Notes: a model not told the origin generated them from the sequence alone. Counted from the stretch's first letter, positions 1 to 62,869 are shown. The stretch is 64,000 bases of DNA from Blasia pusilla (GCA_050084515.1 CM114271.1:48050001-48114000), one strand, 5' to 3'. A program made the numbers and translations.

Positions 1-186
1 ATGGACAAAAGACAGAGCTTCCGTGTAAGCAAATTCTCTAGTGCCCCGCTGCCCGTGTAACTTAAACAGGAGATGTCCTCCGCTGTTGGCCTTCAATGTA
101 TGTGTGCATGGTAAGAGTGCACGGATGGTTGCAAGTGGATCAAGGTTTGGATTAATGCCTTCTTTCGGAACAACGCAAGTTTCATT

Positions 187-1170
187 ATGTGCAAAGCATG
201 CTTGTTTCCGATCGGAGGAAGTGTATCAATCGATCGGACCCTGCTAAATAACTATATCCACCAACCCCACTCATATATCTCGTGCGAGTCAGACAGTCAA
301 ACTGTTTCAAGGTGCTGCTTCCCTACCTCCTCCCCTAAACCCTTCATCCCGGCTTTCTATATCGCACCACATACCTACACTACAACAATCTGGTTTCGAT
401 TGGGTCTCCCCCAACCATCAATGGTTGGTTCGACACATTATGAGTGTCGTCGGAGTCTAGATCCACTTGGTGTGCATTTGGCACGTTGTCTAGTTGGGGA
501 TGAGAGGATAACCACTCACGATGCACTGCTGGATATCCTTTTGTGTATTGCTCGCGATAGTGGCTTCCATGTGCAAAGAGAGAGGCACTACTCCATGCGA
601 AATTCCCTTATCCGTGCTGATCTACACATGACGCGGGAGTCCGAGGTGGTGGTGGCAGATGTTGTAATGACGGATCCTACACAAGAGGCGGTACGATCCC
701 AAGTGGTGGCACAAGGGAGATTGCTACAAGGAGCGGCGGCGGTAAAGAAGACCCATATTTATAGTCGACTTCATGATGGACATCGATTTGTCCCCTCATC
801 CATTGATATGTATGGGGCTATGGGGGAGAGGTTTGATTCGTTCTTTACGGATTGCGCCCATCATCTCCAGTCGAGAAATGGGTTGTCCTTAGCTACTCCG
901 ATTCTTTATTGTAGGCAAAGGGTCTCTATAGCTTTGGAGTGTGCCCATGAAAATGGGCTTTTTTGGCGGGCTTAGGCGATTGGAAACACCAATGTTAGAG
1001 GCCCACTTGGTATTAGTCATAGTTCTCTAGATGTTGTTGATATTGTCTCTATTGTTGGTGAGTTTGGTCGATAGGGAGGGAAGACCCCCTTCTTTCTTTT
1101 CAGCGCACTAAAAAGACTATCATTGCACCTTCTGAGTATATAATAATATCCATTTTATTATTAAAAAAAA
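187..1170 (+). mobile_element. 3' end of a CRE-clade (restriction-like endonuclease) non-LTR retrotransposon, degenerate
   Basis: ORF 187..975 has a CCHC knuckle (ECRRSLDPLGVHLARC), an RHD-like motif (TTHD), an RLE core (RADL...VADVVMTDP...KKTHIY) and a C-terminal RQRVSIAL; A-rich tail at ~1163-1170. Confidence 0.7.
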
Positions 1171-4200: not shown

Positions 4201-4608
4201 GAAGTTTTCATGGGGAGTGCAATAGGAGTAGGTATCGGTTTGGGGATTGAAGACCCATGCGGAGATCAATAGTACCGTTGATGTCATTAGGAGCAAACTC
4301 CTTACCACAAGATATGCAAGGAGCCTTTGGAACAAATGCACAAGTAGAAGGATTACAAGGAGAGGAGGTGGGAGATGCATGAGGTGGTGATGGACGATGA
4401 TGAGGGGGTAAATAGGTTGGGGAAGGAGGAGGATGAAGAGGGGAGATAACAGTAGAATAGATGGGAGTTGGAAGCAAGGCACAAATGAGATATGTGAGGA
4501 TGGCAAAGTAGTAGGTTTTGGTAATAGTGGATCAATATTAGGCTCAATAGAATAAGACAAAGAGGGGAGGAAAGGAGAATCGGGAAGAAATATAGCGAGT
4601 GTAATGGT
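1260..4608 (-). mobile_element. CRE-clade non-LTR retrotransposon (RT plus RLE), frameshifted, 5' part interrupted by element A
   Basis: Minus-strand RT motifs LPLANGEVLYRLV, PHQFGV..GGCEAIVH, DVANAFNS (~3180-3215) and GDPMDGLLFA; RLE in ORF 1525..1860 (KHDAIR...RRVDLV...DMMVADPT). Confidence 0.75.
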
Positions 4609-5270
4609 GGGGGCTTGTATTCTGGAAGGAGAGAGAAAGAGAGGAGAGTCTCTCTTCTAAAAGGACAAAATCCTAGAACTCTCTTCAAACCTTTCCACTA
4701 TTTTAAAATTTTCTCCTCTACTTAAAATTCAAGAAATGTTTTAAAGAGAGTAACAAGTGGACCAAGTTGGGGCGTCGACTAACATCATTTTTCACATTTG
4801 GATGGGAAGATAGAACACTGGAGACCACTTCAAACATGCTTAAATAACTCTCTATGTAGGCCAGTGTTATGGGGCAGGTAGGAGGGTATCTTATTAATGC
4901 AGATCCATTAGATGGGATTTTAGCAATACTAAACTAATCAAAGCCCCGTTCAAAATACACTCTGACTATGGGGTCTAGCCCAAGACTCTTATCCGCATTC
5001 CCAACACATTGTCATTTTCATTTGAGAAAGAGGAGAGGTGATTTGGTGAAGTTTGTAGAAATTGGAGGTTTCAAAATTTCCAACAATGATTCACAAGACT
5101 CAAAGGCCACGAATGACTTAGAAGACTTGGGTCACGAATAGGTACATGGAGTTTTTAGAAGGCTGATAGGCATTTGGCAACTATGTTTAAACCCACATGC
5201 CAAAAGTGAAGGAAGCCAACAAGAATGCCTAAAGGATGGACTTAGAGCAAAAGAGTAGCAATCAAGCAGC

Positions 5271-6221
5271 CAACTTGTCAAAATCTGACAAGTTCGAGGC
5301 CGTCAAAAGTGAAGAAACAAAGAAGCACCACACGATGAACAAAAAAGAAAGAGAATGACATAAATAGAAGCCTATCATCATGACATGCAACATGTCGGAA
5401 TCCGATAGGTTGCATGACATGATGTAAGAAAAAGAAAAAAATGGTACTAGAAACACTACGAGCAACCTGGATAGATTTTGGGCTCTTTATTTCGAACTCC
5501 AACCTCATTCTCGACATTTCGTCAGAATTCAACAACCGGTCATTACAGTCTTGGAGATAAAGGAACTCAGAGAGAATTGGTCATATGACCTACAAATGAA
5601 GATATGACAAGAAACCTACAATTTCCATTCTGATCAACGGTGAGAGAAAAAAAATAGCGGATAACAACCTATTCCAAAAAAAGGATAATAACCTATCGTA
5701 TATGTGTAGATAAGACAAGAACCCCACACATTCAGATCAAAGATTACAAAAAAGAGAGAGAAACTCAAGTCACAAAGATCTACAACTCGTCCAAATCCGA
5801 TTGGTTGCATGACATGATGTAAGGAAAAGGGTAGGAGAAAGTTTTGTCATGAGGGGCTATATGAATAAATGTTAGGAAACACAAGTTCCATTCAGACGTG
5901 CAACCCGTCGGAATCTGACAGGTTGCAAGAGAGTAGAGGAAGAGATGAAAAGTTTAAAGATAAATCCCAGAGGAAACAAATAAAAAGATAAGGAAAATAA
6001 TGTCACCTCTTACAACGTGTTGGAATCCAACATGTTGCAAGCATTGTCTTTGGTTATTTATTTTGCAATCCTTCGGAATCCGACGAGTTGCAAGCAAGTA
6101 GAACTAACCATAAGAGGTAACCATAGACCTATTTTAGAAAGATTGAACCAATCGGAAAGCAAAACATGACCAAAAAAATCCCCAATTAGACATACACCCG
6201 GTCAAAATCCGATTGGTTGCG
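5271..6221. repeat. Cluster 1 of the 29-bp palindrome TGCAACCCGTCGG-AAT-CCGACGGGTTGCA
   Basis: Copies at ~5271, 5386, 5781, 5899 (tgcaacccgtcggaatctgacaggttgca), 6011, 6064, ~6193. Confidence 0.85.
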
Positions 6222-6376
6222 AGCCACCAAAATTTCCCAATAGAAACCAAGAGAGTCCATACAAAGAAAAGCCAAAAGTGCAAAATCACTTCATGAATGT
6301 GTGAAAACATGGAAGTCCTTTATTACAATCCGATCGCAACTCGGAAATTTACATTTGATTTCCTAAACTAGAAAGT

Positions 6377-7134
6377 CTAGTTTATGATCTCTAATGCCTC
6401 ATCATCTACAAGAATACTCCTTACTCTCCTCGGTTCATGTACAATAGAAATCTCTGAAGAAACAAGTGGCTTCAAAAGCTTTTCCCCCCTAGGTATACCA
6501 TATGGTTCCCAACGCCTTTCCCAAAAATATATCTTGTATGGTCTGCAAGATGACGCCCATCCAATATCAACACGTGCTCCACCGCTTGAAACCACTACAT
6601 CCCATATCCCAAACGCTTGAATTGATTGAACCCGATAAATCAATTGAGCTCACTCGTCATTAGTGGTTTGCTCTTCCAAAATGATTTTCGGCCTTGGCCG
6701 CTCTATTTTTGGGATCACAAGTAGTGAGAGTGGTATCACTACCAATGGCTCTGCTCGTGGTGCACTTTTCCTCGGAGGCGAGTTGTATACTCCCACCATC
6801 CTTTTCTAGTATGCCTTTGCCTCCTTGCAAAGGTCAAATAGTTCCTACCTTCCCTCGAGGCATAGTATGTTCCTTCCACTCTGTCAAACACCTCTAATAT
6901 TTATCCCTTATAGGCAGACCAAGTCCAAGACCAAGTCACCCAGTCTGGAGTAGAGCTACATGAGCGTCTACATGAGCTCGAGTGACTTCTCCTTTCCTCC
7001 AAGCATAGGTGTACCTTCTTGCATGAAAATTCCCAAGGGGGCATTGTAAAGGCTATCCAATTTGAACCCATCAAGGGATGGATCAACTCGATTCGGGATC
7101 CCAAACACCTAGAAATTGTGCTCCGATTTGACAA
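6377..7134 (-). pseudogene. Accessory ORF 1 of element A, unknown function, frameshifted
   Basis: C-terminus ...RVRSILVDDEALEIIN matches element B (...RVRNIFIDDEA, 61538-61609 plus 60870-60893), so coding is conserved between the copies. Confidence 0.5.
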
Positions 7135-7211
7135 AAAAATTATACATAAGGGTACTCAATCTGTGCAAAAGACAATGGCAAAAGGATGTCAGCTTTAAGG
7201 AGAAAGAAGCA

Positions 7212-7488
7212 AGCAACCCATAAAAAACCAACGGGTTGCTCTACAATTAGGAGAGAATTATAGTTGCAACCCATCAAAAACCAACGGGTTGCAAGGTCTA
7301 GTAAGCCACCCGTTGGGTTCCAACTGGTTGCTCTATAACACTCAAAATAGTGGATCTACAACCCGTCGCGTTCCGACGGGTTGCAATTCGAGTCTTCTGG
7401 CTCTATATGCAACCTGCTGGTGTCCGATGGGTTGCACTTCAGCTCACAACACAATTTCCCGCAACCCATCAAAATTTAACGAGTTTAA
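7212..7488. repeat. Cluster 2: six regularly spaced 29-bp palindromes with non-identical spacers
   Basis: Starts 7212, 7265, 7304, 7357, 7408, 7460 (periods 53, 39, 53, 51, 52). Confidence 0.9.
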
Positions 7489-7699
7489 TGTCCGACCCAA
7501 ATGTTTGAAACAAATCATATAAAAAAGCAACAGAGTTTGTTTTTTGGGACATACGTAGAGTTCCTTTGATAGAGATCTCAATGGATAGTCATTCTTGATC
7601 ACCGGAGATTGGGCTATCCGCCACTTCAAAGATCTCTTCATGCATTGAAGATTGAAGAGCTTGACTTTTCTCCTTCCAGTTGGAACCAAGAAACATCCC

Positions 7700-10350
7700 C
7701 TCTACTCATATACGCGTCCGCGAAAGAAAAGAAAAGCGCGATCTTGTCGGAAGTTAGTGGAGTCCCTAAGGTAAATCTACTACAAGGAGGTCCACTTCCA
7801 CCTCCTCAACTACCCCATGGAAAATCTATGGGCTGTGCCCATTCGGAGAAGCTCTTGTCCTAAAACAATTAGCTTCTTAATTGCAACGGTGGACTCTTGA
7901 CTAGAAAAAACTCTAAAGTTCATCCAAGAGAGAGGTTTGATGGATCATGATAGTGATCCTGCTCATACTGTCTCTGCGCCTGCCTACGAATGATGGAGTG
8001 TATTCCACATCCTTATTTCCTCCGTTGGAGGATCTTGGCACCTCCTGCTTTTGCTTCTCGCAAGTTTGATGTCTTCTTGTTGGGGTTTAAGTAGCTTCGG
8101 ACTCTACAAGCATCTTTTTTTAGACGACTCCCTTGTCTGTCCTTTGCATCTTGAGGATTTTTCCTAAGAAATCCTTGACCCCTTTGCCTTCGCTTTCAAG
8201 CCCGGTGTGGATTTATCCTTGGCTGTAACCACCTTGGAGACCAACTCAACGGTCTCGATGGCTTGCTCCTCCGCATCACCTTCAAACTATTCCTTAACCT
8301 TCTATAGATTGGGGATGTCATCCTTGCCAACAACGATTGGATCATAGACCACTTATAGGTTCTTGTCAATCATGTCTTTTGGGTCGTTGAAGTCCAACCA
8401 GATTGGATAATTCAACACTTCCCAGTCACACATATCCTGCCCCATCTCCATGTCGTACATGGAGAATCCCTCTCCATTTGGAAGAGAAGCCAAAAATTTG
8501 CATGCGGCAGGATATTTTATCCATGTACTTGCATTCACACAGGAGATGAGGAACCTGTACACCATCTGATGGGAAACTCATTGCCGGGATGAATCAGCCG
8601 CTTGTTCCATAAGATCCCTCTTTTTCTTTGCAAAATCTTGGTTCTTTGCGTCGCCAATTTCCTTGTCGAAATCTGCTTGTGGGAGGATATGATTTTTTAA
8701 CATCGTTATCAGTCCGGGGGTTTTTTTCCGCCTTATCACGAATGTCATCCAACCACAGTTTGTAGTCCTCAACAGCCTCTAGGTTGGCCTCTTGCGGAAC
8801 AGGCTTAGTCTTCTTGAGCTCGGCTTGGAGACTTGCGATCATGGACTTCCCGAGCAGCCGCAATGCATCCCACAAGGACCATTCTCTTAGCTAGTGAGAG
8901 ATTACAGGGTGTGACAACCCAGGCGGGTGGTGTGCCTCCCGCTTCTGGGCCTTCGTCCCCTTGAGACTCATTTTAATTAGTCAAATACGCCTTAATTTCT
9001 GAAATCCGAGAAAGGGTAAACTTGTGGACACGATCTAGAGAAATCTTCTCTCCAATTCGACCGTATGGATCTTCGTCCCTCTTCCGCTGGAATTTTTTTA
9101 TCGCCTTCAACTCCTTGTAGAAGTCTTGGCCGAGTTCACGGCTCAACACAATGATGTAGCACTGTATTTTGCTCACTATGTACTTTCTGGCTGCTGACAC
9201 AACAGCCTGGATAAATTTTGCTCGCTCCGACGTTGAAATGTTTTCCCACTGCTCCAACTCCAGTGTTGCGCTTTTCCTCGCTGCCTGGATTTGTTACCAA
9301 CATAAAATGGTGATAGCTGCATCTTGGGAGATGAATTTATTTGCCCCAAGTCTTCTTTTTGATCTGTGCTCTCTTGGCGAGCATCTCATCCACTAAGTCG
9401 TCTCCCAAGAATCCTTTGTACTGCGATGGGTGTGTTGTAAGCACCTTATTCACTTTGTTGCATTCCTCAATCCAGTGATGGGTGAAGTTCCCCACTGAGA
9501 CAATCCTCCAATAGTCAACCCAATGTAAGAATTATGATCTCCTACAACCCGTCAGATTCTGACACGTTTTACACGGTATCAAAGAAGAAAGTATGTATGG
9601 CAGATGTTGTAGGGACTAACTGCAATCCGTCAAACTTTGACAGGTTGCACCAAGCATTTGGAGATCACCTCTATGAAAGGTTCACAATGAAGTTGTAGAA
9701 ACCCATCTGAGTTCGTCAGGTTGCTCATCGATGATATCGGCCTAGAGTGGTGCAAACCGTGGAAGTCCGACGGGTTGCAATCAGGCCCCAAAAGCGCAAG
9801 TCATACATTCAGAGTTCTAGTAATGTGTGTCCAAAAACCTGCTTGCAGGATGGTCTATTGAACTAGTCTTGGAAGCCCTAAATGCGCCCTCGGCGAAGAA
9901 GATGATTCTTCTCCTGCTTTTTCAGAGATGTCCACCATCTCCACGCTTCAGGTCCTCATCGCCTCCTCAACGATCTCCGGAATATATATCATCATCAGTT
10001 CTTTCGTTCATAGTTCCTCTGGACTTCAAGTAGGAGACGTCCTCCATTTCAACTCTATCCGTAGGACGTGCGGGACTTTCTTATTCCATGGTGATAGCCT
10101 TCTCCTTTCACACTTCCGCGCTTTTGCCAATTCAGTCCTCCTCGCGGCGGCATTTTGATGCTTCTTCTCTTTATTCTCATCCGCAATCCTTTTCTTCATC
10201 GCCTTGGACGCCTCTGCCTTGGCGTTTCGCTTAGCGAGTTGCTCCATAGCAAGCTTTGCCTCCAACTCTTGCGTGGGCATTTATGCTTCCTTCTCTCACT
10301 CCTCAATCTCTTGTTTCCTGATGTCTGTTGCCGAGCGTTGGCCAAGAAAA
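7700..10350 (-). pseudogene. Accessory ORF 2 of element A; long, K/E-rich coiled-coil protein, probably spliced, disrupted
   Basis: Successive protein-like minus ORFs 10026..10280, 8973..9257, 8594..8875, 8353..8565; candidate donor ~9838 and acceptor ~9286; similarly K/E-rich minus sequence at 61990-62330. Confidence 0.45.
9543..9779. repeat. Cluster 3 of the 29-bp palindrome (in a putative intron of accessory ORF 2)
   Basis: Copies at ~9543, 9621, ~9697, 9751. Confidence 0.75.
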
Positions 10351-10847
10351 GTCAACAAAGGAGTCTTGTTTGACTTGGGAGTGGTGCTCCCAACCTCTCG
10401 GGAGTGTGGCGCTCCCAACCTTTGTGGCTTGGGGCTTTTCTCTCATTATTCTAATTTTCAAAGATATGCAGAATAGGAGGAAATCTCAGACCTTAGTGGA
10501 AAAAATGACTAGATGATCGACTTCTCGACAGACGTGATGAGTCAAACCTCAAAGCGTCATCACCTTCCTGACAACTTATATTCATCATCGACCCTCAAAG
10601 CATTGTCACCTTGCAGTGAAGGAGTATTTATGTTAACTGTTGTGACCAGCAGACGCGGGGTGCTTAACTGTCGATAGGAGTCATTGGAGGATGAAGAGGT
10701 GGAAGTGAAATCATAGAATGAAAAAGAAACATGAATCAAATACGGGCCTTATATAGTTTCTTGGTCGTTGAACTCACCGTTGGTTATAGGGAACCGTTCG
10801 ACCGATGGCGACGTGTGGCCGTTACAATGCTCTCTATGTGGGAACCG

Positions 10848-11374
10848 TGCAACCCGTGGCACTCTAATGGTTTGCATAGCAACACTGTACCCTTACGATG
10901 CGTGGACCCCGTGCAACCCGTTGGAGTCCGACGGGTTGCACAGACAAAGTTGGCCAATACTGTTCCAATCCGTCCTCAAGGTGGATGGGTCGCGTGCAAC
11001 CTATCGCAACCGGACGGATTGCACGGCGATGTTGTTGCGTCTTGAGAACCCCATGCAACCCGTCAAGATCAGATCGGTCCATCCTCTAGGTGGGGCATCT
11101 GCAACCTTTCACAACTCGACGGGTTGCTATAGCGATAGTGGACTGCCCCACGATTCGGGTTCATCGCCCGTGGGATGGCGTGGACCATATCGACGGGTTG
11201 CGACAGGGACATCCAGCTGGCCCAATCTTTTATCTGGCTGACCGAGTGCAATCCATTGCGGTCCAACGGATTCCACTTTGGCAAATTTCTTAACTTTCTC
11301 ATCCATCATTTTGATTTTTGCTGCAATCTGTCAAAATTCGACGGATTGCAACCTAACAGAATCTGACGGGTTGT
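10848..11374. repeat. Cluster 4 of the 29-bp palindrome, CpG-rich, between divergent ORFs
   Basis: Copies at 10848, 10912 (tgcaacccgttggagtccgacgggttgca), ~10964, 10995, 11054, 11100, ~11172 (right arm), 11246, 11322, ~11346. Confidence 0.85.
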
Positions 11375-11623
11375 ACTCACCTCGTGAATGGGCCAATTGG
11401 AGCCAAAATCAACGTGTTTAATCCCATAGGTTGAGTTTTAGGGTTAGACTTTCCTTGGTCCAACCAGCAACCGATAGTGAAACCTAACAATCAACTGCGT
11501 GTCGGAGAATTTAGGTTAGAATTTGAACAATCACTATTCACTATAAATTCAACATTCTCATTCTCATTCTCATTCTAATTTTTATTCTCGCCTTGGTGGA
11601 ATCATCTCTACTATCATCTCCAA

Positions 11624-13400
11624 ATGGATAATTATGTGAAACTCACATGTGGCAGTTATCTAGCGTCCCTTCCTCAATCCAAGATAATTCAAGCACAATC
11701 TGATGATTCTTACGTACAAGAGGATAAAATTTTCCTCACTCTGATTTCTTCTCCCAATTGGAACAATCTTTGTTTCCAAGAATGATAGGGTGGATGGAAC
11801 GGAGGACATTATAAGTGAAACAATCCATCGAGGGATTGAAGACTCCAATATATGGAATCTCTTACCTTACACAAATGGACAATATAGAGTGTATGGCTTG
11901 CCTCTAAAGCCCTATGTTTCTCGACCTGACGTTCAAAAACCTCCAAGTGCGCTGAGCTCCAAGTTTGCCACCACTACATCAGAAGATCCAACATCGAGAC
12001 AATGTCCATGACAATATTGTTCTTCCTGAAGCCATTCCGGATGTTGTCAACCTCAAGGGATCTGTTGAACACCAACCAGACCGTGCCTTTGCATACTCAT
12101 TCATGTTGCAAGTTTCGGGCAATAATTTGCTTTTGTCTCTACCCTTGAAAACATCAAACACACTCTTATGGACGAGCTGCCAGCCATGTATGAAGGAAAC
12201 TATTTGTTTGAATTGCCTCCATTTGCTAATCCAACTCAAAAGAAAGATGGAGGACACTTGAAGGGTATGGATTGAAAGTCCGACTATCGTCGATGGTGCA
12301 AGCTACAGTGGACAAGTGCTTCAATTGGATCAATCCTAATTGGTCCATGGATTTTTTCTTGCTGCCAATGGGTTAGAGCCATGGAGTGTAGAAATCATGG
12401 TTGCATGTTTCTAGAGCGCAATGAGCAAGTCAATACGTCACAATTCGCCCTTAAAAATGCAAAAACTCCTTATGAGGTTGGTGCGATCATACCACCAATC
12501 GGCCATTGGCCATCAATGTCCTCATTGTTAGGACTCTTCTTTATGCATTTGATTGTGTCTTGCATAGTTTTTTTTTCATTGTACACAACTACAGTTCTAC
12601 GTCCAAGTACACCAAGTTGGAAATTCATGTTGGGTCCCACACTTATCCTGTTACCGGTGCAATTCAGAGATACATCAAGGAGGATGTGGCAAAGAAAGTG
12701 GCGGAGGTATATAAAAAATCTCCAAAATCAAAGCCCGGAGTGATCAAACTGAAAAAGGCATCACAAATTTGTGAACAACTCGTTGGAATCCCTAGCCAAG
12801 GGGAGATCACGGCAGTTGAGGAGAAATAACTTGGGGAAAATTTGGCATTTCTGGCTCATCCTAAATGCTTCAAGAAACAACTGTGTCAAAAATGAATACT
12901 TGATGGAAAGATGACCCAGATGGATGCCTTTGCCAAAATCAAGGCTAACTCCAAGTTTCCATTTATTCAGAGATGGAAATTTATAGGCCAAGGAGGTGAG
13001 GGATCTAGAAATTATGTCTTCAAAATGTCTACTACAGGGCCATCTAGTGGCCTCGATCTTATTCGTAGAATGAGGGAAGGAGAAGATCTCTTTGAAAATT
13101 GGGTAAACTTTAATATTTGCTACAAGGTGTTGAATGGATGGTTGACCATGGGTGCGCATGTTTACGACCATGTGGAGAAGGGACTCAGAACCATCTTTGT
13201 GTGTGAGGTAAAAGAAAAAGATATTGGAAGCTCGAAGATGTATTCGGTACTCTTACTGGTTGTGTTGAAGGAAAACAAAAGGCCACCTCCTAAAATTTAT
13301 GGGTTCATGGTAGAGAATGCACAACCAGGATGGATTGCTATCAAGGACGTGTGCAGGGGTGGTGAAGTTCAACCTGAGAGAGAAAGGTCATATGCTTTCC
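11624..13400 (+). pseudogene. Mutator (MULE)-like DDE transposase remnant with an upstream Cys-rich domain; C-terminal half missing
   Basis: ORF 12911..13468 has FKMS..GPSSGLDLIRRM, WLTMGAHVYD, GFMVENAQPGW.AI (GFMAD-like) and ERERSYAF (C-x2-H position), resembling the MULE transposase core; Cys-rich segment ~12350-12420 (LECRNHGC). Recognised by eye only. Confidence 0.5.
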
Positions 13401-13751
13401 AATCCGTTGAATTTCGACTCATTGCTATAAGTCTTTTTTTCGACCAAATTCTACTTGCAATTCATTGAAATCCAACGAGATACACATGTCTACAACTTGT
13501 CGGATTCTAATAGGTTGCAAGCCTTGCATTGTCAACACTTGTACTTGCAACCCGTCAGAATTCGACGGGTTGCAAGTTCATATTTTGGAGAAAATTATTC
13601 TTGCAACTCGTTGGAATACAACGGGTTACACATAAAAAATCCTTGGTGAGATCTGGTAGAACTTGCCTCCTACTTGCAATCCATCCAATTCCGATGGTTT
13701 GCAATAGAAGGTTCCTGGGTGTTAAAATCTGTCAGATTTCGACATGTTGTA
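13398..13751. repeat. Cluster 5 of the 29-bp palindrome
   Basis: Copies at ~13398, 13456, 13491, 13546 (tgcaacccgtcagaattcgacgggttgca), 13602, 13675, ~13723. Confidence 0.85.
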
Positions 13752-13776
13752 ATTTGTTCGTTTAGCGAGCTTTCTT

Positions 13777-14157
13777 TGTGAGAAAATAAAAAAATGACAA
13801 AATCACTGAAATCTTTACAAAACTTAGATATACAAAGTGGCCTAATCTGTACGTGCGCTCACAGAAGAGCTTCGATGGAACCTGAACATAGAGATAACTC
13901 GACATACGAGAATACGCTACCGCTTCGGCTCCCAAAAATTTTAGGATTATCTAACCCTATATTGCATCAGGGTGCGAGGCACCCTAATGCAATATAGGGT
14001 TAGATAATCCTTGTAACACTACTCCTAAAACCATCTATCTCATATTACTATGACTCCTCCGACGTCTAAGTTAGAACCATCAATCTAGGCTTCTCCTCAT
14101 ACAATGGGGCCGATCAAATTAATAGTGCTCAGAGAAGTGGATGTTGAGAATCCAATA
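13777..14157 (-). mobile_element. Solo LTR of the copia family at 23426-28363
   Basis: Reverse complement aligns over its full length with LTR 27968-28363; perfect 5-bp TSD TTCTT (13772-13776 and 14158-14162). Confidence 0.95.
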
Positions 14158-16648
14158 TTCTTCTTCCCTCAATTCACATTTTTGTCTATGCAAGGATTGA
14201 ACTTTCATGTAAATGCCCTTTGCCCAAACACAAGTGGAGCCAAGAGTGTTTATTCCTCTTGGAAGTCATCAAAAGCATGCCAAAAAATATCACTTGTGGA
14301 GGCATACCACCAAGACCAAAGAAGAGCAATGCTACAATCTGCAACATCCCATATATTCCTCTCAAAAGGCATAACCAAGGGAAAAAGGCCTTCAATTTAA
14401 GAGCTCTATGTAAGGGCCGTTGTGAGATGTGGTGAATTGCATGATGAAAAAATATATGTGGAAGCCTTCAATCGGTGCGTAGCCGGAACTCCTAAACAAG
14501 CCACTCTAAGGATGCAATATGAGGTCTTAGAGTGTACTTTCAAATTCCAAAATGTTCACTACGAGCTTGAACTCTAATCAGCTAAGGAAATTTTGATTCT
14601 TTTTTGTGGGTGTGAAATGTCATATTACAATATGCTTTAAATTCAAGTTGTGATACATTGGAAGTTGTAGTTCTGACTTTAAAACATTAGAAATGAATTT
14701 TTCCAAGCATTCTTAACAACATCTACATGCATCAAACCGAAGAAGAGAAAATTGTGGAAAACGCACCAAGTCTTTTGAACTTGAGATTGTATAAACTATA
14801 ACAGAAAAGACAAGATGTTCAAGAAATCAGGCATGATTAAGAAACATGGAATCGAAATTTTGTTCCTTTCAATAGTAGCTGTAAAAGAATCAAGTTGCAG
14901 TATTGTTTAAGAATCCAAAGAGTTGGCAAGGTCTTAACTTTGAGTATGAAAAAAAACAGCAAATTACAAATCATATGCATGATCTATGAATCTAAAGTGA
15001 TAGTGGCATTAAAATATCATTCTGTTATCACCAAATATGCCAAAACCAGGTATCCAACGCCTCCACATTGTCATAAAAAAACATATGTTCCATTTTCTCT
15101 TAACAATACTTCATGACCTACTCCAATGGGCATTCTTTCTTGAGCAATCTCTCAGGCCATAAGGTGTGAGACCCAACAGATCCCTTCAAGAGCAATTGTG
15201 GAGGATCATCTTCATGATTTGGATATGGTAGCTCTACTTCACCATTGAGAATAATCTTCACATCAACTCTCACACATCCAAATGGGATTTCTTTCCCATG
15301 GATTTTATCCCGACCAGCAAGACTTGATACATATCCTTCTCCCACAGATTGGCAAGTATTCTTGTTTTGCATCATCTAGACATAATAACCTACCATAAGC
15401 TGATGGGAGCACAAAGACAAACACTTTAGAAAAATCAATACAAATTTGGTTACCTTTAATGTATATAATTGAAATACATACAAGAAAGTCAAGTAGATCA
15501 CTATCTAAAGCATAGAATTTACCATTGTTAGGAATGTTGGAAGAATATATAAGATTTGGTTGGCTTGTCTACAATTAGTACATAAACATGGTCAACAAAT
15601 AAGGTATCTCTCATCTCTTGTGAATGTGATATGAACATGAAAGAAAGTGGAAGCTAGAAGACAAATATAGAAACAACATCCCAAGAAATTACTACTTACA
15701 GCCATCTTCTCTTTCTTCTATGTGCGAGATTCCTTTCTCTTCTTTAGGAGGACTTGCTTTGGTTGGATGCCTCGTGTGTTATATCATGCCCCGTCTGAAC
15801 TTGTGCCTTGGAACCCAAGATTGGCTCATGTACCTTGTCTATTTGCTACAAGGAATTAGAGTTCTCCCCAACCCCAATATGATGTTCTACACCGGAAGTC
15901 ACAAAAGGAGATATGGATGGAAATGTTTGGGGTTTAGGAAACAAATTTCCATTTATGACCTCTACATCCACAACCTCTGTAGGTAGGCCCTCTTTAACTT
16001 TTACATTCAAGCGAGGAGTAGAAGAAGGCAAAGGGTCTATAGGTGCGTCCTTGGTAATCTTGGAAAGCATTTCTTGAATTAAATTCAAGGTCTCCCTTAT
16101 AGCTTTCAACTCACTCTTAGTAGACTCTGCCTCCTTCTCTATATTGTCCAACCAATCTATCAAAGAAGGACCAGATCCCTACACAAGAAGAGTTTCATCA
16201 AAACACAGGTTAGTGACTTTGTGATCCTATTAAAAATGATACACTTTTGCTCCTGATTGATGGAAAAAAAATACTAGAATCAGAAAATTCAAGTTTAGAA
16301 ACTTGATTGAAAGTTTGAAAACTATTTACCTTACTGCCTATAGTATTATGACTAAGTCCAACTCCACTGGTCCCTAGCGTTTCTTCCAACTCATTCAACA
16401 AAGGGCTTTCACCTCTTTCCTTTGTCTACAAGTTTAAAACCAAATACCACAAAATTTTTAACCAATATCAAAATGATGTTGACGCTAGTCAACCACTAAA
16501 CTTGAGTTCTCCATATACTAAAGAAAACAAACTTTTAATGAACTTTACCACTCAAATTGCACATGGATGGAATTTCATTGAGTATGCTGGAAAATGGAGT
16601 GAGTGTTTGAACGAATTACATAGCAAGGAATGTTTCACTCCTTTTTGA

Positions 16649-17272
16649 TGTCGTGCGCATACACATCGTTGTCACCGAACACACACACAAACACGCAGGA
16701 TCCCATGCTAACTCATGGCATCCAAATAACGAGACAAGAAGTACTAAAATATCTCCAATAAATTAAGATCCAATCTCTCTCTACACCATCTCACACCATA
16801 GCTCTCAAAGGTGTGCACTCTCTCTCATATCAAACCAAACCCACTCTCCTAATGAGAGGCTTGGGTTACACTCACAAGGCAAGGGACCATAGCTCCGCCG
16901 CCTTATGCCAAGAAGTTCAACAAAGAGAGAATGAGCTCTCAAGCTCTCTCTCCTTGAGGTATACCCCTCCCCTCTCCCAAGCTCTCTCCATGGTAACCTA
17001 TTCTCCCAAGTCACCTCCTTGGCTCTTGACCTGATATAGGAGGTCAAGGGCTACTTAGCAAAAATAGCAAGTTGATCATATACTCAAAATGATATATACC
17101 TAAAATAGTAAGTTCGTCAATATGGCTCCAAATGAGTTGAAACGAAGGGGAAACTTGCTCTCTCAGGTTTCCCGGGGCTTCAGCAGGTCATCCTTGACCT
17201 ACTGAGCCTATCCTCCACTACTCACAAAGGTGATCTACTAGATCTCACTGATCTTTCCTAAAAGGCGTGATA
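16649..17272. mobile_element. Solo LTR (~624 bp), same family as 60894-61537 but in the opposite orientation
   Basis: Ends tgtcgtgcgc...ggcgtgata; full-length reverse-complement similarity to 60894-61537; 4-bp TSD ttga/gtga. Confidence 0.85.
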
Positions 17273-17462
17273 GTGACCAATTCGACCCATCTTGTTAAGT
17301 TGCTCAACGTTTCCTCTATTCATCTTCATCCTTTGTGATTTTTCCTTTTCCATTGGTGAGAGCCAATATTTTTCGAGGGCTTCCCAAGTTTTAGGAACCA
17401 CATCTAGAGGAGTTGGACATTCCATACTAAGACCTAAAGTATAGAAGAGTCTTTTTCAAACG

Positions 17463-17568
<106 letters not shown>

Positions 17569-23857: not shown

Positions 23858-23869
23858 TGGTATCAGAGC
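23858..23869 (+). promoter_or_regulatory. Primer binding site (tRNA-iMet)
   Basis: TGGTATCAGAGC immediately after the 5' LTR. Confidence 0.95.
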
Positions 23870-58094: not shown

Positions 58095-58338
58095 CTAGAA
58101 ACCAAGGTGGCCTTCCTTGATGGAAAAATTCTCCTCTAGGTACATAAGGATCCTATTGTGTAGTATACGGCACAAGAGCTTCCGGACTACACTAAAAAAT
58201 TTAATACTCTTACAATTTCCAAGGTCTTCTCGTTCACCCTTCTTGAAGAAGTTTACGATGAATCCCACTCGCCACCTTTGGGGAATGACTTTTTCCCGCC
58301 AAACCAAGTTGAAGAGACTCACTAGAAAACGAGCCATT
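58095..58338 (-). mobile_element. LINE RT N-terminal fragment
   Basis: LFNLVW...IPQRWRVGFIVNFFKKGEREDLGN.KSI...VVRKLLCRIL.NRI...E..GF. Confidence 0.85.
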
Positions 58339-58939
58339 GGGGGGTTGTTATTCTGGCTGGAGATAAGAAGAGCGGAGAGTCTCTCTTCTAAAAAAAGAAC
58401 AAAATCCTTAACCTCTCTTCAAAAAATTCTTTTTAAAAAAAATATTCTCCTCTATTTGAAATACAAGAAATTTTTAGGAGAGAGTTATAAGTGGACCACG
58501 TTGGGGCAAAAACTATCCTCATTTTCTCAAACGAGGATGTGAAGATGGAAATGTGAAGACCCAACCCGACATACTTAAATCACTCACTATGTAAGCGAGT
58601 GCTTGCGGGTATATTATCATCGCAAAACCATCACGAGGGGATTTTATCACTACAAAAATATTGTCACAACAATCACATGTGCTCAAAATACACTCAGACT
58701 ATGCGGTCAAAAGAAGGTATTGAATCCTTGTGTTTGACAATACAAGTGATTATAGTGCAGCTAAGGAGTAAAGGATATCAGACTTCTCAATAAAAGAAAA
58801 GACTATGGGCTCATAGCTAGAACCATGCATGTTGCAAGAAATTAATAATAAAGATGGACTTGGAAGAGAGGGTACACAATGTTGACTATATTCATGATAT
58901 TGTAATTGTAGATGAATTGGAGAATCGTGGAAGGGTTAT

Positions 58940-59250
58940 GAATAAATCTTTGGATCTAGACATAGACATCTTGAAAGGGCTCAAGACATGTTGCATGAGT
59001 GCAATCCATATGTGAAGACCTTACGTCATATGGCATGTGAAGCAAGTGATCTTAATATGCAGATCATTCTGAAGGCAAGTAAGAGAGGTCTCGATGCAAA
59101 GCATTATAACTTACCAACTACTTCCGAGGTTGTAGCTATATTACAAGGTGATGGAAGTGAACATGTTGACCATCTTGATATGATTGTACGACTTCATGGA
59201 GGAGGAGTGAGGTGCATATCTGACCTCAATGAAGCATATATTCCATTATA
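58940..59250 (+). mobile_element. Helitron Rep N-terminal fragment
   Basis: MLHECNPYVKTLR...HYNLPTTSEVVAILQGD...DMIVRLHGG...ISDLNEAYIPL. Confidence 0.85.
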
Positions 59251-59623
59251 TAGTAAAGAACTATTTTGGGTTTGTGGAGTCTCATGGGGGCAGACGAGGC
59301 ATTGTAATGGTCAGTTTATCATTGATCTTAGAAGGTTTTCCTCAAAATTTTGAATGCAAACAAGTTCCAAGAAAGAAGTAGCAAAGAGATCGTGTGGATG
59401 TGAAGTTGGTAGAAAGTGGAGGATTTCCATATTTCCAACAATTACTCAGAAGACTTGGAGGCAACGAATGACTAACAAGACTTGGCTTAGGAATGGCTAC
59501 ATGGAGTCTTAAGAAGGTTGATGGGCGTTTGGGTACGGTGGTTAAACACAAATGTCAGAAGTGAAGCAAGCCAACAAGAATGCCTCAAGGAAGGAGTAAG
59601 AGGAAAAGAGAAGAAATCAATCA

Positions 59624-60681
59624 CCCTAGTTGTCAAATTTGACAAGTTGCAAGACTTCAAAAGTGAAGAACAAAATTATTCATTAAATGAAAAATTAGAG
59701 ATGGGAAAAAGAAACAAAGAAAGAAATGAACAGAAACAACATGACAGATCAAAGGCCATAATATAAAATTGAGGAATGAGAAGAAAGAAGAGCATTCACA
59801 CAAGCAACCTGCCAAAATCCGACAAGTTGCAAGACGTCAAAAAGTGAAGAAACTCTTCCAACACATGAAAAATCATAGATCTCAAAAAAGAAAGAGAGAA
59901 TGTAATGAATATAAGGCAATCATCATGACATGCAACTTGTTGGAATCTGACAGGTTGCATGACAATATGTAAGAAAAAGGGGGTAAGAAAAAAGAAAGAA
60001 TGGGGTTACCAAAGACACTACGAGCAACCTATGCCTCTTGAAGGTTAAAAAGAAGTAAAATTCTAGGAAAAAACTTGAAATACATATGAAGAAATAACCA
60101 CTCAAACATTACATGTTGCAAGACATGACAAGAAGAGAAACAATTGTGAGATTATGACTCATCAAGATCAAGAAATAGAAAGAATTGTGATAACATAGAC
60201 ATTGCTTGCAACCTGTTGGAATCCGAGAAGTTGCAAGACCTGAAAACTGCAAAATTTTAGGAGACAACTTCACATCCACATGAAGAAATGATGGAAAATA
60301 GACAGATTCTATGCAGACATGCAACCAGTCAGAATCCGACAGGTTGCAAGACATGACAAGAAGAGAAACAGTTGTGAGACATGACTCATCAAGGTCAAGA
60401 AAAAAGAAAGAATTGGGATAACCTAGCCATTGCTTGCAACTTTTCCGAATCTGATAGGTTGCAAGACATAACGATTGCAAAATTTCAAGAAACAACTTGA
60501 CATCGATATGAAGAAATGATAGGAAACAGACACATTCAATGCAGAGAAGCAACCTGTTGAAATCCTACGGGTTGCAATAGATTAAAATTTTCCAAAAAAG
60601 ATTACAAGAGACACCATAAAAAAACCATACATGGAAGAGTAGAAAATCAAGTTTAAACTCGTCAGATTCCGACATGTTGAA
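59624..60681. repeat. Palindrome cluster in element B, including a ~229-bp tandem duplication
   Basis: Copies at ~59624, 59803, 59931, 60206, 60320, 60435, 60548, ~60653; 60115-60342 is repeated at 60343-60575. Confidence 0.85.
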
Positions 60682-60893
60682 GGTTGTAGACAATGTGAAA
60701 AAATATTTGGATTCCAAAAGCACAAGTTTCAATGTGTCAGAAACGGACAACTCAAAAAATGCCTCACTATTCAAAACTAGAGCCAAGGAATTTTGAGAAA
60801 GGTTTTTAAAGTCTTTTATTGAAATGTGTTTGCAACTCGGATATTTAATTGGATTTCTTGAACTAAAAACTCTAGTCTATGATCTCTTCCGCA

Positions 60894-61537
60894 TGTCACG
60901 TCTTTTAGGATAGATCGGTGAGATATAGTAGAGCGCCTTTGTGAGAAGTGGAGGACAGGCTCAGTAGATCAAGGATGACCTGCTGAGGCCCTGGGAAACC
61001 TAAGAGAGTAGGTTTCCCCTTCGTTACGGCTCATTTGGAGCCATATTAAGGAACTTACTATTTTAGGTAATACCATTTTGAATATACGATCAAATTTATA
61101 TTTTTGGTAAGTGGCCCTTGACCTCCTACATTAGGTCAAGAGCCAATGAGGTGACTTGGGAGCATAAGTTATCATGGAGAGAGCTTGGAAGAGGGGAGGG
61201 TTATACCTCGAGGAGAGAGAGTTTGAGAGCTCATTCTCTCTTTGTTGAACCTCTTGGCATGAGACGGGGGAGCTATGGTCTTGCTTTTCTTGTGTGTGTA
61301 ACCCAAGCCTTTCATTAGGAGAATGGGTTTGGTTTGACATTGAGAGAGACGTGTGAGAGTGCACACATGTGAGAATTATGGTATTGTGAGAGAGATTGGA
61401 TCTTATTTTATTGGAGATATTTTGGTACTTCTTGTCTCGTTGTTTGGAAGCCATGAGTTAGCATGGGATCGTGCGTGTTTATGTGTGTGTTCGATGAAAG
61501 GGATGTATGTTGTGTAGCGATGTGTATGCGCACGACA
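60894..61537. mobile_element. Solo LTR (644 bp, TGTC...GACA) inserted into accessory ORF 1 of element B
   Basis: TG...CA ends with a short terminal inverted repeat; homologous to 16649-17272; removing it plus 4 bp restores alignment with 6384-6410. Confidence 0.88.
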
Positions 61538-62869
61538 TGCCTCATCATCTATAAAAATGTTCCTAACTCTCATCGATTCTTGTACAAGGGACTTCACTAG
61601 GCTAACCAATGGCTCCTCTTGACGATTGTAGATAGGGATTGAGAAAGAAGGGGAACTAGAGAGTCATGCCCCCCTAGGTGCTCTATATCGGTCCCATGTC
61701 ACTTCACATAAGTCCCAATGCCTACTACGGCATGTTATCTTGTATGCTATGCAAAGTGACACCCATCCAAAATCAATGTGTTCCTCCGCTTGAAACCACT
61801 ACTGCCCCACTCCAAAACACTTTTAAACGAACGCACCAATGCTCACTAGTCATCATTAAAGAGCTCTTCCAAAATCACCGCCGGTTTTGCCCGCCCGATT
61901 TTTGGAATCATAGGTAGTGACTATTACTACGACCGCCGCAAAGAAGTCTTCCTCACGACTTTCCTTCAATCCATTGTCTTCAAAACATTATTCCTCTTCC
62001 TATTCTTACTCTTCATACATCTTTCTGCTTTGTGAAGACTCTCGCTGATTCCTTCTTCTTCTTTCTTTTGCTTCTTTACTTTCTTAGTCTTTGCTCTTTG
62101 TTCTTCGGTCTTCGTTTAACAATTCTTACCATCTTTCCACACTGCGGTCTTTGCTGTAGTCTTTGCCACAAAGCACCCGCACCCGCGCCTCGTACTCTTA
62201 CGTCTTTCTTGTCGCTTCAGGGGAGCTTCTCCATTCCATACTTCCATGACTCAACATGCTTCAACACAATTTTTGCATAGCTTTCTTCTTTACCTCCCAT
62301 CTTAAGCCTTTAGTCTTCAATCAGTGAAGACTTCCCTACAATTCTATACAAAAATAATCTTCCTATGAAAATTTCAAAGATGTGAGTGAGTACTTAAATT
62401 AAATTTTCCAACTTTCTTTAGATAAGAGACGATCCTACATTTCAAGGGATATGGATGGTTTCCATGACTACACCTTGGAATTGCAAAGATGTCCAATAGA
62501 GTTGCAAAGGCATTTGACTAGGAAGTGGATGCCGCGGAGGCTGATAGGTTAACTAAATTTTGTGCGCAACAAGGTGTTAACCTAGAGAGAGCATATGTCG
62601 ATCTTAAGACATATAAGGATGAGAAGCAGAATGATGCAGAGTCGGCTCTCCTAGAAAGATTCTGTGTAGAGTTAAGAAGTGCGCAACATCTTTTGAGGGG
62701 ACGTACTACTTCTTTGGGGATGACATTGACAATTTCATGTGCAATAACATTGATTTCTCATAAGAATGTAGTAGTAGGACATGATCCGAGCAATATTGTG
62801 GGAACCGGTTTATTTTGTACCATTCGAAAACTTACGGAACCCATGGCTTTAGGGAAGAAATGTACTATT

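What the first reader, a model, noticed from the sequence alone, without database searches (positions are those of the whole stretch)
4609..14560. Multi-ORF Mutator-like element whose non-coding segments are loaded with one 29-bp palindrome: candidate TE-encoded protein/binding-site (anti-silencing-type) system
Seen: a MULE-like transposase remnant on + (11624-13400), divergent unknown ORFs on - (7700-10350 and 6377-7134), and more than 30 copies of TGCAACCCGTCGG-AAT-CCGACGGGTTGCA. The copies lie in every inter-ORF gap and a putative intron, and I saw none inside the coding blocks or outside elements A and B. Known: Arabidopsis VANDAL MULEs encode VANC proteins that bind short motifs accumulated in the element's non-coding regions and cause sequence-specific demethylation. 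Inference: this may be an analogous, undescribed system with a much longer dyad operator bound by an element-encoded dimeric protein. I see no sequence evidence of VANC homology.
Basis: partly seen in the sequence, partly recalled or inferred. Interest (0 to 1): 0.8.

Follow-up and report, generated by a model that had tools for sequence, protein, structure and literature searches.

The report
Palindrome-box arrays in decayed plant retrotransposon
A long palindromic DNA motif really is repeated about thirty times in this stretch, but the stretch looks like the worn-out remains of an LTR retrotransposon carrying known-type regulatory "boxes", not a Mutator element with its own binding protein.

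Summary
The motif is real. TGCAACCCGTCGG-N3-CCGACGGGTTGCA occurs 33 times at 8 or fewer of 26 mismatches, against 0-1 in 20 shuffles. Twenty-six sites form five clusters between 5386 and 13703, seven lie at 59803-60681, and none lie elsewhere. Only six loci are within 3 mismatches.

The Mutator reading fails. I found no terminal inverted repeat. No Pfam family matched any ORF, nor any of six frames of 6700-14600 read through stops. Three sequence searches found no homologue.

"Element A" is composite.
- A 2.1-kb unit (4608-6728) is shared with copy B (58338-61920). It starts with TG and is followed 3 nt later by TGGTATCA, the start of the tRNA-Met primer-binding site that follows both verified Copia LTRs in this window.
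- A gag/pol-less region follows it.
- A solo Copia LTR (13777-14157) carries a perfect TTCTT duplication.

The boxes have a CGG-N3-CCG dyad core. They form CpG-rich islands, one upstream of a TATA box, and only the core is conserved, not the spacers. They fold strongly and show CpG decay.

The closest match is the repeated-motif boxes of Sirevirus LTR retrotransposons. CACTA TnpA-site arrays are the main rival. An element-encoded binding protein is not supported. This is a new member of a known kind, of modest interest.

The parts
4608..6728 (+). LTR-like repeat unit, copy A (starts TGGGGG..., ends ...GTAGTGAG)
   Evidence: It is homologous to 58338-61920 at 72-85% identity. A contig of coded run X2 covering the upstream repeat stops matching at 4607.
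5386..6221 (.). Cluster C1: 6 dyad boxes inside the LTR-like unit
6731..6742 (+). Primer-binding-site-like TGGTATCACTAC, 3 nt after the end of the unit
   Evidence: The first 8 nt are exact and 9 of 12 match the PBS TGGTATCAGAGC. That PBS follows the two verified Copia LTRs at 23858 and 33681. The 12-mer match on its own is at chance level.
7212..7436 (.). Cluster C2: 5 dyad boxes spaced about 39-53 bp apart
   Evidence: Sites. RNA fold z = -8.46 for 7200-7480.
7444..10351 (-). Fragmented minus-strand open frames (longest 106 aa) with no recognisable family
9543..9779 (.). Cluster C3: 4 dyad boxes
10848..11375 (.). Cluster C4: 7 dyad boxes plus half-sites, forming a CpG island (GC 0.56-0.57, CpG o/e 0.96-1.11 over 10800-11199)
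   Evidence: Sites, composition. RNA fold z = -5.86.
11541..11548 (+). TATA-box-like CTATAAAT, 166 nt after the last C4 box, followed by a (CATTCT)6 microsatellite at 11553-11589 and an ATG at 11624
   Evidence: Read from the sequence. Microsatellite.
11624..13468 (+). Plus-strand open-frame block in at least four frames (longest 190 aa). No family was found.
13491..13703 (.). Cluster C5: 4 dyad boxes
13777..14157 (-). Nested solo LTR of the window's Copia family, flanked by TTCTT (13772-13776) and TTCTT (14158-14162)
   Evidence: It matches 28364-27967 at 85% and 23855-23428 at 78%. The ends and duplication were read.
14163..14560 (.). Continuation of the repeat beyond the solo LTR. The true right end is undetermined.
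   Evidence: The perfect TSD shows the flanks were once contiguous. X1 contig depth falls between bins 14350-14783 and 14784-15217.
58338..61920 (+). LTR-like unit, copy B. It carries 7 boxes at 59803-60681, an extra segment at about 58709-59399 and a nested insertion at about 60888-61536.

Best explanation
WHAT IT IS. The region is not one intact multi-gene transposon. It is the methylated, decayed remains of LTR-retrotransposon-type sequence.
- A 2.1-kb LTR-like unit spans 4608-6728, with a second copy at 58338-61920.
- It is followed by a primer-binding-site-like TGGTATCA.
- About 7.5 kb of gag/pol-less internal sequence follows, interrupted by a solo Copia LTR.

WHAT THE PALINDROME IS. The 29-31-bp palindrome is the family's repeated cis-acting box. 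It is a dyad with a CGG-N3-CCG core, present 6-7 times per LTR and again in internal non-coding clusters. One internal cluster is a CpG island upstream of a TATA box.

HOW IT LIKELY WORKS (INFERRED, NOT SHOWN). By analogy with the repeated-motif boxes of Sirevirus LTRs, the boxes act as clustered enhancer or promoter sites for a dimeric DNA-binding factor. I saw no evidence that the factor is element-encoded, so a host factor is more likely. As transcribed hairpins they would also attract small-RNA-directed methylation. That would explain their CpG decay here.
For: SHOWN: THE MOTIF.
- There are 33 boxes against 0-1 in shuffles, confined to the two related regions.
- Core identity is 0.71 within clusters and 0.69 between clusters. 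Spacer identity is 0.54 against 0.53 for shuffled spacers. TRF finds no tandem array. The box itself is therefore what is kept.
- CpG o/e is 0.77-1.01 in the clusters of region A and 0.24-0.73 between them. C4 is island-like, with CTATAAAT 166 nt downstream.
- The arrays fold far better than shuffles, z = -5.9 and -8.5.

SHOWN: LTR-TYPE ANATOMY.
- The A/B unit starts with TG at a junction that a contig of coded run X2 confirms.
- TGGTATCA lies 3 nt after its end. Of the 5 plus-strand TGGTATCA in the window, 3 lie 1-4 nt after the right end of a repeat unit, and two of those are perfect PBSs of verified Copia LTRs.
- AGTGGTATCA equals 10 consecutive nt of the Sirevirus junction variant CA/AGTGG+TATCAGAGC (PMC2829016, passages).
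- One X1 contig joins 6660 to 6736 with at least 76 nt on each side. The unit and the start of the internal region are therefore contiguous in another genomic copy.

LITERATURE (passages read).
- Sirevirus boxes are palindromic with a CGG-CCG core, for example GTCGGACGTCCGAC.
- They number 8-32 per element and sit in the LTR and again upstream of the env-like gene.
- They form CpG islands upstream of a TATA box and are siRNA and hairpin hotspots.
Against: - No second LTR copy flanks region A. Only B exists, 54 kb away, across a CTP-synthase gene.
- There is no gag, RT or integrase signal in any frame of 6700-14600, and no tblastx match to the rest of the window, which includes its Copia.
- The PBS-like 12-mer has 3 mismatches, a level expected by chance (40 hits against 52 expected). 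Both copies share the deviant ...CTAC.
- The unit does not end in a clear CA.
- The Sirevirus PPT octamer AGGGGGAG is not clustered upstream. Of 35 hits at 1 or fewer mismatches, only two lie within 500 bp upstream of 4608 (4210 and 4424), and none abuts 4608 or 58338.
- The boxes sit at 37-76% of the unit, not in the first half.
- The box (13+3+13) is longer than the 10-20-bp published ones.
- B shows no homology to A beyond the junction.
- The unit's right end reads GTAGTG, which also fits a CACTA terminus.
Confidence: 0.45

Rival explanations
1. The region holds CACTA (En/Spm)-type DNA transposon fragments. The palindromes would be subterminal repeat motifs bound by a TnpA-like accessory protein supplied in trans by an autonomous relative. 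That protein would control transposition and local hypomethylation.
For: - The A/B unit ends in GTAGTG in both copies.
- In B, CACTAG lies 18 nt before the homology start, and ACT flanks both 58320 and 61919.
- CACTA elements carry arrays of inverted motif pairs. Soybean Tgmt* has 12 + 2 stem-loop-forming pairs (PMC2613891, passages).
- Spm TnpA binds dense clusters of a family-specific motif, CCVTCGCAAA, and causes hypomethylation (bioRxiv 10.64898/2026.08.24.746577, sections 4 and 6 read). Our half-site contains CCGTCG.
- A CACTA-type DUF4218 fragment lies at 22486-22716 (E = 1.5e-12).
Against: - Copy A has no CACTA at its left end. An independent contig shows the neighbouring repeat running up to 4607.
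- CACTA...TAGTG pairs with matching 3-bp flanks occur at chance frequency in this window, 22 seen against 21 expected from 1354 pairs.
- No TIR beyond 5-6 nt was found.
- The arrays are central or internal, not subterminal.
- No Transposase_21, TNP2 or Transposase_24 signal appears in 6700-14600.
- No boxes lie near the DUF4218 fragment.
Confidence: 0.2
2. One reading: a Mutator-like element whose accessory protein (VANC-like) binds the dyad and removes silencing.
For: - The motif clusters in non-ORF DNA.
- ORF-like blocks diverge either side of a CpG-rich array.
- With boundaries shifted by 2 nt, the flanks of unit A give GAGTGTAAT and GAGTGGTAT, 7 of 9 identical. I read this from the sequences printed.
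Against: - No TIR was found.
- The same 9-bp test in copy B gives 2 of 9 (read).
- No MULE, DBD_Tnp_Mut, SWIM or any other family matched at E<=10 or in six-frame read-through.
- No homologue was found.
- Heavy CpG decay of the boxes argues against protection from methylation: 78 of 173 mismatches are C>T or G>A at the 8 CpG positions.
Confidence: 0.04
3. The region is a nest of several unrelated or only distantly related repeat fragments that happen to share a self-propagating hairpin or minisatellite-like palindrome, with no protein-binding role. The palindrome would spread by slippage, gene conversion or recombination at hairpins.
For: - Contig depth from coded run X1 varies by more than 100-fold between sub-segments. 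Conserved breakpoints lie at 9910, 11534/11623 and 12747-12778.
- X1 contigs join boxes from different clusters through other 13-33-nt spacers (tables 5 and 5c).
- Box similarity between clusters equals similarity within clusters.
Against: - Spacers show no residual similarity at all, so recent duplication is unlikely.
- The CGG-N3-CCG core, the CpG-island context and the downstream TATA box fit described regulatory boxes.
- Contig depth is a poor measure of copy number, as the tool's own note says.
Confidence: 0.2

Closest known systems
Repeated-motif (RM) boxes of Sirevirus (Ty1/copia, Pseudoviridae) LTR retrotransposons: Bousios et al. 2010 (PMC2829016) and 2016 (PMC4728375), passages read
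   Same: - The motif has dyad symmetry with a CGG...CCG core. GTCGG-AAT-CCGAC here compares with GTCGGACGTCCGAC in Usier.
- There are many copies per element, 6-7 per LTR-like unit here against 7.3 per Ji/Opie LTR.
- Extra clusters lie in internal non-coding DNA.
- The clusters coincide with CpG-rich islands, and one has a TATA box downstream.
- Hairpin-forming potential is strong.
- Only the arms are conserved.
- A tRNA-Met-type PBS junction (AGTGGTATCA) is present.
   Different: - The box is 29-31 bp against 10-20 bp.
- There is no gag-pol, no env-like homology test is possible, and there is no second LTR.
- The canonical PPT octamer cluster is absent.
- The PBS deviates after 8 nt.
- The boxes lie in the middle of the unit, and the TATA-like element in the LTR-like unit lies before them, not after.
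- Genus membership cannot be tested without a pol sequence.
CACTA/En-Spm subterminal repeats bound by TnpA: Tgmt* (PMC2613891, passages) and Arabidopsis Spm1 TnpA (bioRxiv 10.64898/2026.08.24.746577, abstract and sections 4 and 6)
   Same: - A family-specific motif occurs in dense clusters, often as inverted pairs that can form stem-loops.
- A TE-encoded protein binds the clusters and causes local hypomethylation.
- One end of the unit reads GTAGTG.
   Different: - The clusters here are internal, not within a few hundred bp of the termini.
- The CACTA terminus and 3-bp duplication are not reproducible between the two copies.
- No TnpD or TnpA coding remnant lies in the region.
VANDAL (MULE) VANC anti-silencing system: Sasaki et al. 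2023 (PMC10398659, passages)
   Same: Motifs accumulate in non-coding parts of the element, and the motif-bearing regions evolve quickly.
   Different: - VANC targets are short motifs in tandem repeats. Here a long dyad sits among unrelated spacers.
- There is no MULE transposase, TIR or 9-bp duplication.
- The boxes carry the signature of methylation decay.

Membership tests
Mutator-like element (MULE/VANDAL) | Long terminal inverted repeats at both ends | tested here: not met
   All 25 inverted pairs listed of the 42 found in 4000-15500 involve the motif, an internal hairpin or a chance pair. None joins the two ends. The left 400 bp of A and of B have no minus-strand match in the window apart from a microsatellite.
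Mutator-like element (MULE/VANDAL) | 9-11-bp target-site duplication | tested here: not met
   Copy A gives 7 of 9 only after shifting the boundary by 2 nt. Copy B gives 2 of 9 at the same positions (read).
Mutator-like element (MULE/VANDAL) | MURA-type transposase (Pfam MULE / Transposase_mut / DBD_Tnp_Mut / SWIM) | tested here: not met
   The only Pfam hits were off-target: DUF1642 at E 0.0096 among 16 ORFs at E<=0.01. Urm1 and PUB62-63_C at E>=0.1 among 6 plus-strand ORFs at E<=10. ATP-synt_B at E 0.7 in six frames of 6700-14600 with stops as X. No homologue was found for 12896-13465.
VANC-type anti-silencing system | Element-encoded protein that binds the motif, with local hypomethylation | not testable with these tools
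   No reference VANC sequence, binding data or methylome was available. Indirectly, 78 of 173 box mismatches are CpG transitions, which points to past methylation.
CACTA / En-Spm | CACTA...TAGTG termini | tested here: inconclusive
   The right end reads GTAGTG in both copies. The left end reads CACTAG only in B, 18 nt outside the homology. A starts TGGGGG.
CACTA / En-Spm | 3-bp target-site duplication | tested here: inconclusive
   B has ACT/ACT. A blind scan gives 22 such pairs against 21 expected. A has none.
CACTA / En-Spm | TnpD (TNP2-type) transposase or TnpA-like gene inside the element | tested here: not met
   None is found in 6700-14600. The only DUF4218 fragment lies at 22486-22716, outside the region and without boxes.
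LTR retrotransposon | Two LTRs in direct orientation with a 5-bp duplication | tested here: not met
   Only one copy of the unit lies in region A. The other copy (B) is 54 kb away.
LTR retrotransposon | LTR starts TG and is followed by a tRNA primer-binding site | tested here: inconclusive
   The TG start at 4608 is met. TGGTATCA is exact 3 nt after the unit, as at the two verified Copia LTRs. However, only 9 of 12 positions match the full PBS, and that is chance level for a 12-mer.
LTR retrotransposon | gag-pol coding region | tested here: not met
   No RVT, rve or gag family was found in six frames. There is no tblastx match to the rest of the window, which includes its Copia. A non-autonomous derivative would explain this.
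Sirevirus genus (Ty1/copia) | Palindromic repeated-motif boxes with a CGG-CCG core in the LTR and the internal linker, forming CpG islands | tested here: met
   Definition taken from PMC2829016.
Sirevirus genus (Ty1/copia) | Multiple AGGGGGAG polypurine tracts clustered before the 3' LTR, with an AT/TG attachment site | tested here: not met
   Of 35 hits at 1 or fewer mismatches in the window, none abuts 4608 or 58338, and there is no cluster.
Sirevirus genus (Ty1/copia) | Sirevirus-clade reverse transcriptase / integrase | not testable with these tools
   This copy has no pol sequence, and no genome is held from which to find autonomous relatives.

The most novel reading that the evidence does not exclude
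The orphan open frames either side of the CpG-island array (minus strand 7444-10351, plus strand 11624-13468) are decayed genes of a lineage-specific accessory protein. That protein would bind the 13-3-13 dyad as a dimer. This would be a retrotransposon-borne, self-encoded operator/regulator pair comparable to VANC or TnpA, but in an LTR element and with an unusually long operator.
Probability: 0.07. Interest if true: 0.7.

Novelty: new member of a known kind. Interest (0 to 1): 0.28.

Why it matters
If the best reading holds, this is one more family of plant LTR-retrotransposon sequence with palindromic CpG-rich control boxes. The dyad is unusually long, 13+3+13. The boxes are still recognisable after the spacers have lost all similarity.

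That pattern adds to the evidence that such boxes are the selected functional unit of these elements, acting as promoter modules and probable small-RNA triggers. The result is useful for annotating repeats in this genome. It does not open a new question.

The main value of this check is negative. The attractive 'new VANC-like Mutator system' reading is not supported.

Tried and rejected
DATA SOURCES THAT GAVE NOTHING.
- The whole genome is not held.
- An exact-pattern scan of metagenome contigs found 0 loci.
- A full-text search for either half-site string found 0 papers.
- The look-up of sequencing runs listed one small-share DNA holder and no RNA holder.
- When laid, runs X4 and X5 covered almost only the CATTCT microsatellite, plus a trace of X4 at 4802-5669. 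X2 (RNA only by guess) gave low cover of parts of the region.

PROTEIN-LEVEL ATTEMPTS.
- Single-sequence AlphaFold2 of 12896-13405 (pLDDT 38.8) and of 8976-9293 minus strand (pLDDT 59.0) was too poor to search folds.
- The Atlas gave no usable hit, with recognition 1606, below the 2300 mark.
- phmmer of 8973-9293 (minus strand) against 1.84 billion representatives gave 0 hits.
- tblastx of 6700-13800 against the rest of the window gave nothing.

STRUCTURAL ATTEMPTS.
- TRF found only a microsatellite.
- A search for CACTA TIR pairs found nothing convincing.
- A 10-nt match, CACTACCAAT at 6737 against 38740, has no boxes nearby and non-matching flanks, so I rejected it as chance.
- The sequence that continues the upstream repeat in another copy was not found in the window. 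Region A could therefore not be shown to be a simple insertion with a definable duplication. Other loose-end consensus strings gave only chance matches.
- Local alignment of A beyond 6727 with B beyond 61920 scored 13, against 12-19 for shuffles.
- The Helitron reading was rejected. There is no CTRR end and no A/T flanks, on my reading.

Full report
OBSERVATION.

The palindrome is real and highly non-random. I scored the 26 specified positions of TGCAACCCGTCGG-N3-CCGACGGGTTGCA. Thirty-three sites have 8 or fewer mismatches, against 0 or 1 in each of 20 shuffles.

The sites are distributed as follows:
- Twenty-six lie in five clusters: 5386-6221, 7212-7436, 9543-9779, 10848-11375 and 13491-13703.
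- Seven lie at 59803-60681.
- None lies elsewhere in the 64 kb.

Half-sites tell the same story. Of 34 hits at 2 or fewer mismatches, 33 fall in these two regions.

The copies are worn. Only six loci match the 29-mer within three mismatches, and none is perfect. So 'more than 30 copies' is right only for degenerate copies and only when both regions are counted.

WHAT THE REGION IS MADE OF.

Self-comparison shows that regions A and B share only A 4608-6728 and B 58338-61920, at 72-85% identity. B carries an extra segment at about 58709-59399 and a nested insertion at about 60888-61536. Beyond the shared unit the two loci are unrelated: the local alignment score is 13, against 12-19 for shuffles.

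The left junction is independently supported. A contig of coded run X2 follows the upstream repeat up to 4607 and then diverges.

At 13777-14157 sits a reverse-oriented solo LTR of the window's own Copia family. It is flanked by a perfect TTCTT/TTCTT duplication.

In run X1, 2179 contigs lay on 3500-16500 at 80% identity or more, and all 30 bins were covered. The whole stretch is therefore repeated in that genome. Coverage was very uneven between sub-segments, with recurrent breakpoints at 9910, 11534/11623 and 12747-12778. X1 contigs also show the box in other arrays, with 13-33-nt spacers.

CODING CAPACITY.

Nothing recognisable is encoded. The evidence is as follows:
- Sixteen ORFs of the region scanned at E<=0.01 gave only a below-threshold DUF1642 hit (E 0.0096).
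- The six plus-strand ORFs scanned at E<=10 gave only chance-level hits.
- All six frames of 6700-14600, with stops read as X, gave no family at E<=1 except a 0.7 coiled-coil-like hit.
- The 190-aa plus-strand ORF has no relative among longer or similar-length proteins.
- The 106-aa minus-strand ORF has none among 1.84 billion representatives.
- The Atlas recognition value, 1606, is below the level most real families reach.
- Single-sequence folds were unusable, with pLDDT 38.8 and 59.0.

Open frames of 151-168 aa run straight through the arrays. ORF length here is therefore not evidence of genes. The 'MULE-like transposase remnant' is not supported.

PROPERTIES OF THE BOX.
- Only the dyad is conserved. 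Core identity is 0.71 within clusters and 0.69 between clusters. Spacers are no more alike than shuffled spacers, 0.54 against 0.53. TRF finds no tandem array. The cores were chosen by likeness to the consensus, which inflates their identity.
- The immediate flanks extend the dyad to about 31 bp, T before and A after.
- Of 173 mismatches to the consensus, 78 are C>T or G>A at the eight CpG positions. This is the signature of methylated DNA.
- In region A the clusters have higher CpG o/e (0.77-1.01) than the DNA between them (0.24-0.73). The B arrays are lower, at 0.39. Cluster C4 is island-like, with GC 0.56-0.57 and o/e about 1.0-1.1 over 400 bp.
- After C4 come CTATAAAT at 11541, a CATTCT microsatellite, and the ATG at 11624.
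- The arrays fold far better than shuffles, z = -5.9 and -8.5.

CLASSIFICATION TESTS.

Mutator fails. I found no TIR, no reproducible 9-bp duplication (7 of 9 in A after a 2-nt shift, 2 of 9 in B) and no transposase.

CACTA is possible but weak.
- For it: the unit ends in GTAGTG in both copies. In B, a CACTAG 18 nt outside the homology start gives an ACT/ACT duplication.
- Against it: copy A has no such left end. A blind scan of the window finds 22 CACTA...TAGTG pairs with matching 3-bp flanks, against 21 expected. No TnpD or TnpA remnant lies in the region. The only DUF4218 fragment, at 22486-22716, has no boxes near it.

An LTR-type reading fits best.
- The unit starts with TG.
- Three nucleotides after its end stands TGGTATCA. 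The window has five plus-strand copies of this 8-mer. Three lie 1-4 nt after the right end of a repeat unit, and two of those are the perfect tRNA-Met primer-binding sites of verified Copia LTRs at 23858 and 33681.
- One X1 contig joins the end of the unit to at least 76 nt of the following sequence in another genomic copy.

Points against the LTR reading:
- There is no second LTR and no gag-pol.
- The 12-mer PBS match (9 of 12) is at chance level. Both copies share the deviant tail.
- There is no clean CA end.

COMPARISON WITH KNOWN SYSTEMS.

Passages of Bousios et al. 2010 (PMC2829016) describe the repeated-motif boxes of Sirevirus LTR retrotransposons:
- They are palindromic with a CGG-CCG core, for example GTCGGACGTCCGAC.
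- They number 8-32 per element.
- They cluster in the LTR and again upstream of the env-like gene.
- They define CpG islands that lie just upstream of a TATA box.
- The 5' junction is CA/ATTGG or AGTGG plus TATCAGAGC.

Bousios et al. 2016 (PMC4728375) shows that such palindromes are hairpin-prone siRNA hotspots. Their arms are conserved while the surrounding sequence turns over.

The boxes here share the core (GTCGG-AAT-CCGAC), the copy number per LTR-like unit (6 and 7), the internal clusters, the CpG-island and TATA context, the hairpin potential and AGTGGTATCA at the junction.

They differ in length (29-31 bp against 10-20 bp) and in position within the unit. The canonical AGGGGGAG polypurine cluster is absent. 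Genus membership cannot be tested without a pol sequence.

CACTA elements carry arrays of inverted subterminal motifs (PMC2613891). Arabidopsis Spm TnpA binds dense clusters of a family-specific motif and triggers local hypomethylation (bioRxiv 10.64898/2026.08.24.746577). VANC is described in PMC10398659.

MECHANISM, MARKED BY STATUS.
- Shown: a conserved dyad box in clusters; a CpG-island and TATA context for one cluster; strong hairpin potential; methylation-type decay; and no recognisable coding capacity.
- Inferred: the boxes are multimerised cis-regulatory sites for a dimeric DNA-binding factor that drives element transcription. When transcribed, they would form hairpins that draw small-RNA-directed methylation. 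This locus holds silenced relics.
- Not shown: the identity of any binding factor. An element-encoded one has no support here.

VERDICT.

The motif observation is confirmed and the Mutator/VANC interpretation is not. The most likely reading, at about 0.45, is decayed LTR-retrotransposon sequence with Sirevirus-type repeated-motif boxes. CACTA-type arrays (about 0.2) and a mixed nest with a self-propagating hairpin repeat (about 0.2) remain open. This is a new member of a known kind, with modest interest (0.28).

The limiting factor is that no genome was available. Family structure therefore rests on two decayed copies and on summary tables from one coded run.

Noticed in passing
window 23427-28364: A near-complete Copia element. 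Its LTRs are about 430 bp (23427-23856 and 27969-28364). The PBS TGGTATCAGAGC lies at 23858 and a G-rich polypurine tract lies before the 3' LTR. The gag-int-RT-RNase H region is split over four open frames (23906-25822, 25828-26541, 26493-27500, 27501-27938). It appears to sit inside a roughly 260-360-bp repeat (22810-23434 matches 28361-28813).
   Followed up: partly
window 33385-36523: A second, short Copia derivative. Its LTRs (33385-33680 and 36216-36523) are 78% alike. It has a perfect PBS at 33681 and gag/RVT_2 fragments at 34548-35225.
   Followed up: partly
window 21654-22716 (-): A CACTA-type transposase fragment: DUF4218 at 22486-22716 (E = 1.5e-12), with a weak DUF4216 hit at 21654-22337. 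It lies next to the Copia insertion, and no palindrome boxes are nearby.
   Followed up: partly
window 41976-45832 (+): Exons matching the CTP synthase N-terminal domain (three ORFs, E from 1e-13 to 5e-7), separated by kb-sized introns. This is a host gene lying between the two box-bearing regions.
   Followed up: no
window 58946-59353 (+): A 135-aa open frame inside the segment that copy B has and copy A lacks. From memory it resembles the region upstream of the Rep domain in plant Helitron proteins. Pfam gave no hit, so this is unverified. A PIF1-helicase fragment lies at 32548-32784 (-).
   Followed up: partly
window 16663-17270 and 60896-61506: A roughly 610-bp repeat in inverted orientation, 86% alike. 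The second copy is nested in the LTR-like unit B. Partial relatives lie at 39779-39955 and 53838-53997.
   Followed up: no
window 17460-17566, 29117-29196, 55626-55834: Three long period-2 microsatellites of the same unit, up to about 210 bp. They are seen as staggered self-matches.
   Followed up: no
window 115-975 (+) and 2001-6000: A 286-aa open frame with no Pfam family. The 2-6 kb stretch has a strongly purine-rich plus strand (AT skew up to 0.245, GC skew up to 0.234). This is a different, highly repeated element that ends at 4607.
   Followed up: no
window 6721-6742 and 61914-61930: In both copies the junction after the unit forms a small inverted repeat: GTAGTGA...TCACTAC in A and GTAGT...ACTAC in B. 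It overlaps the PBS-like sequence and its meaning is unknown.
   Followed up: partly
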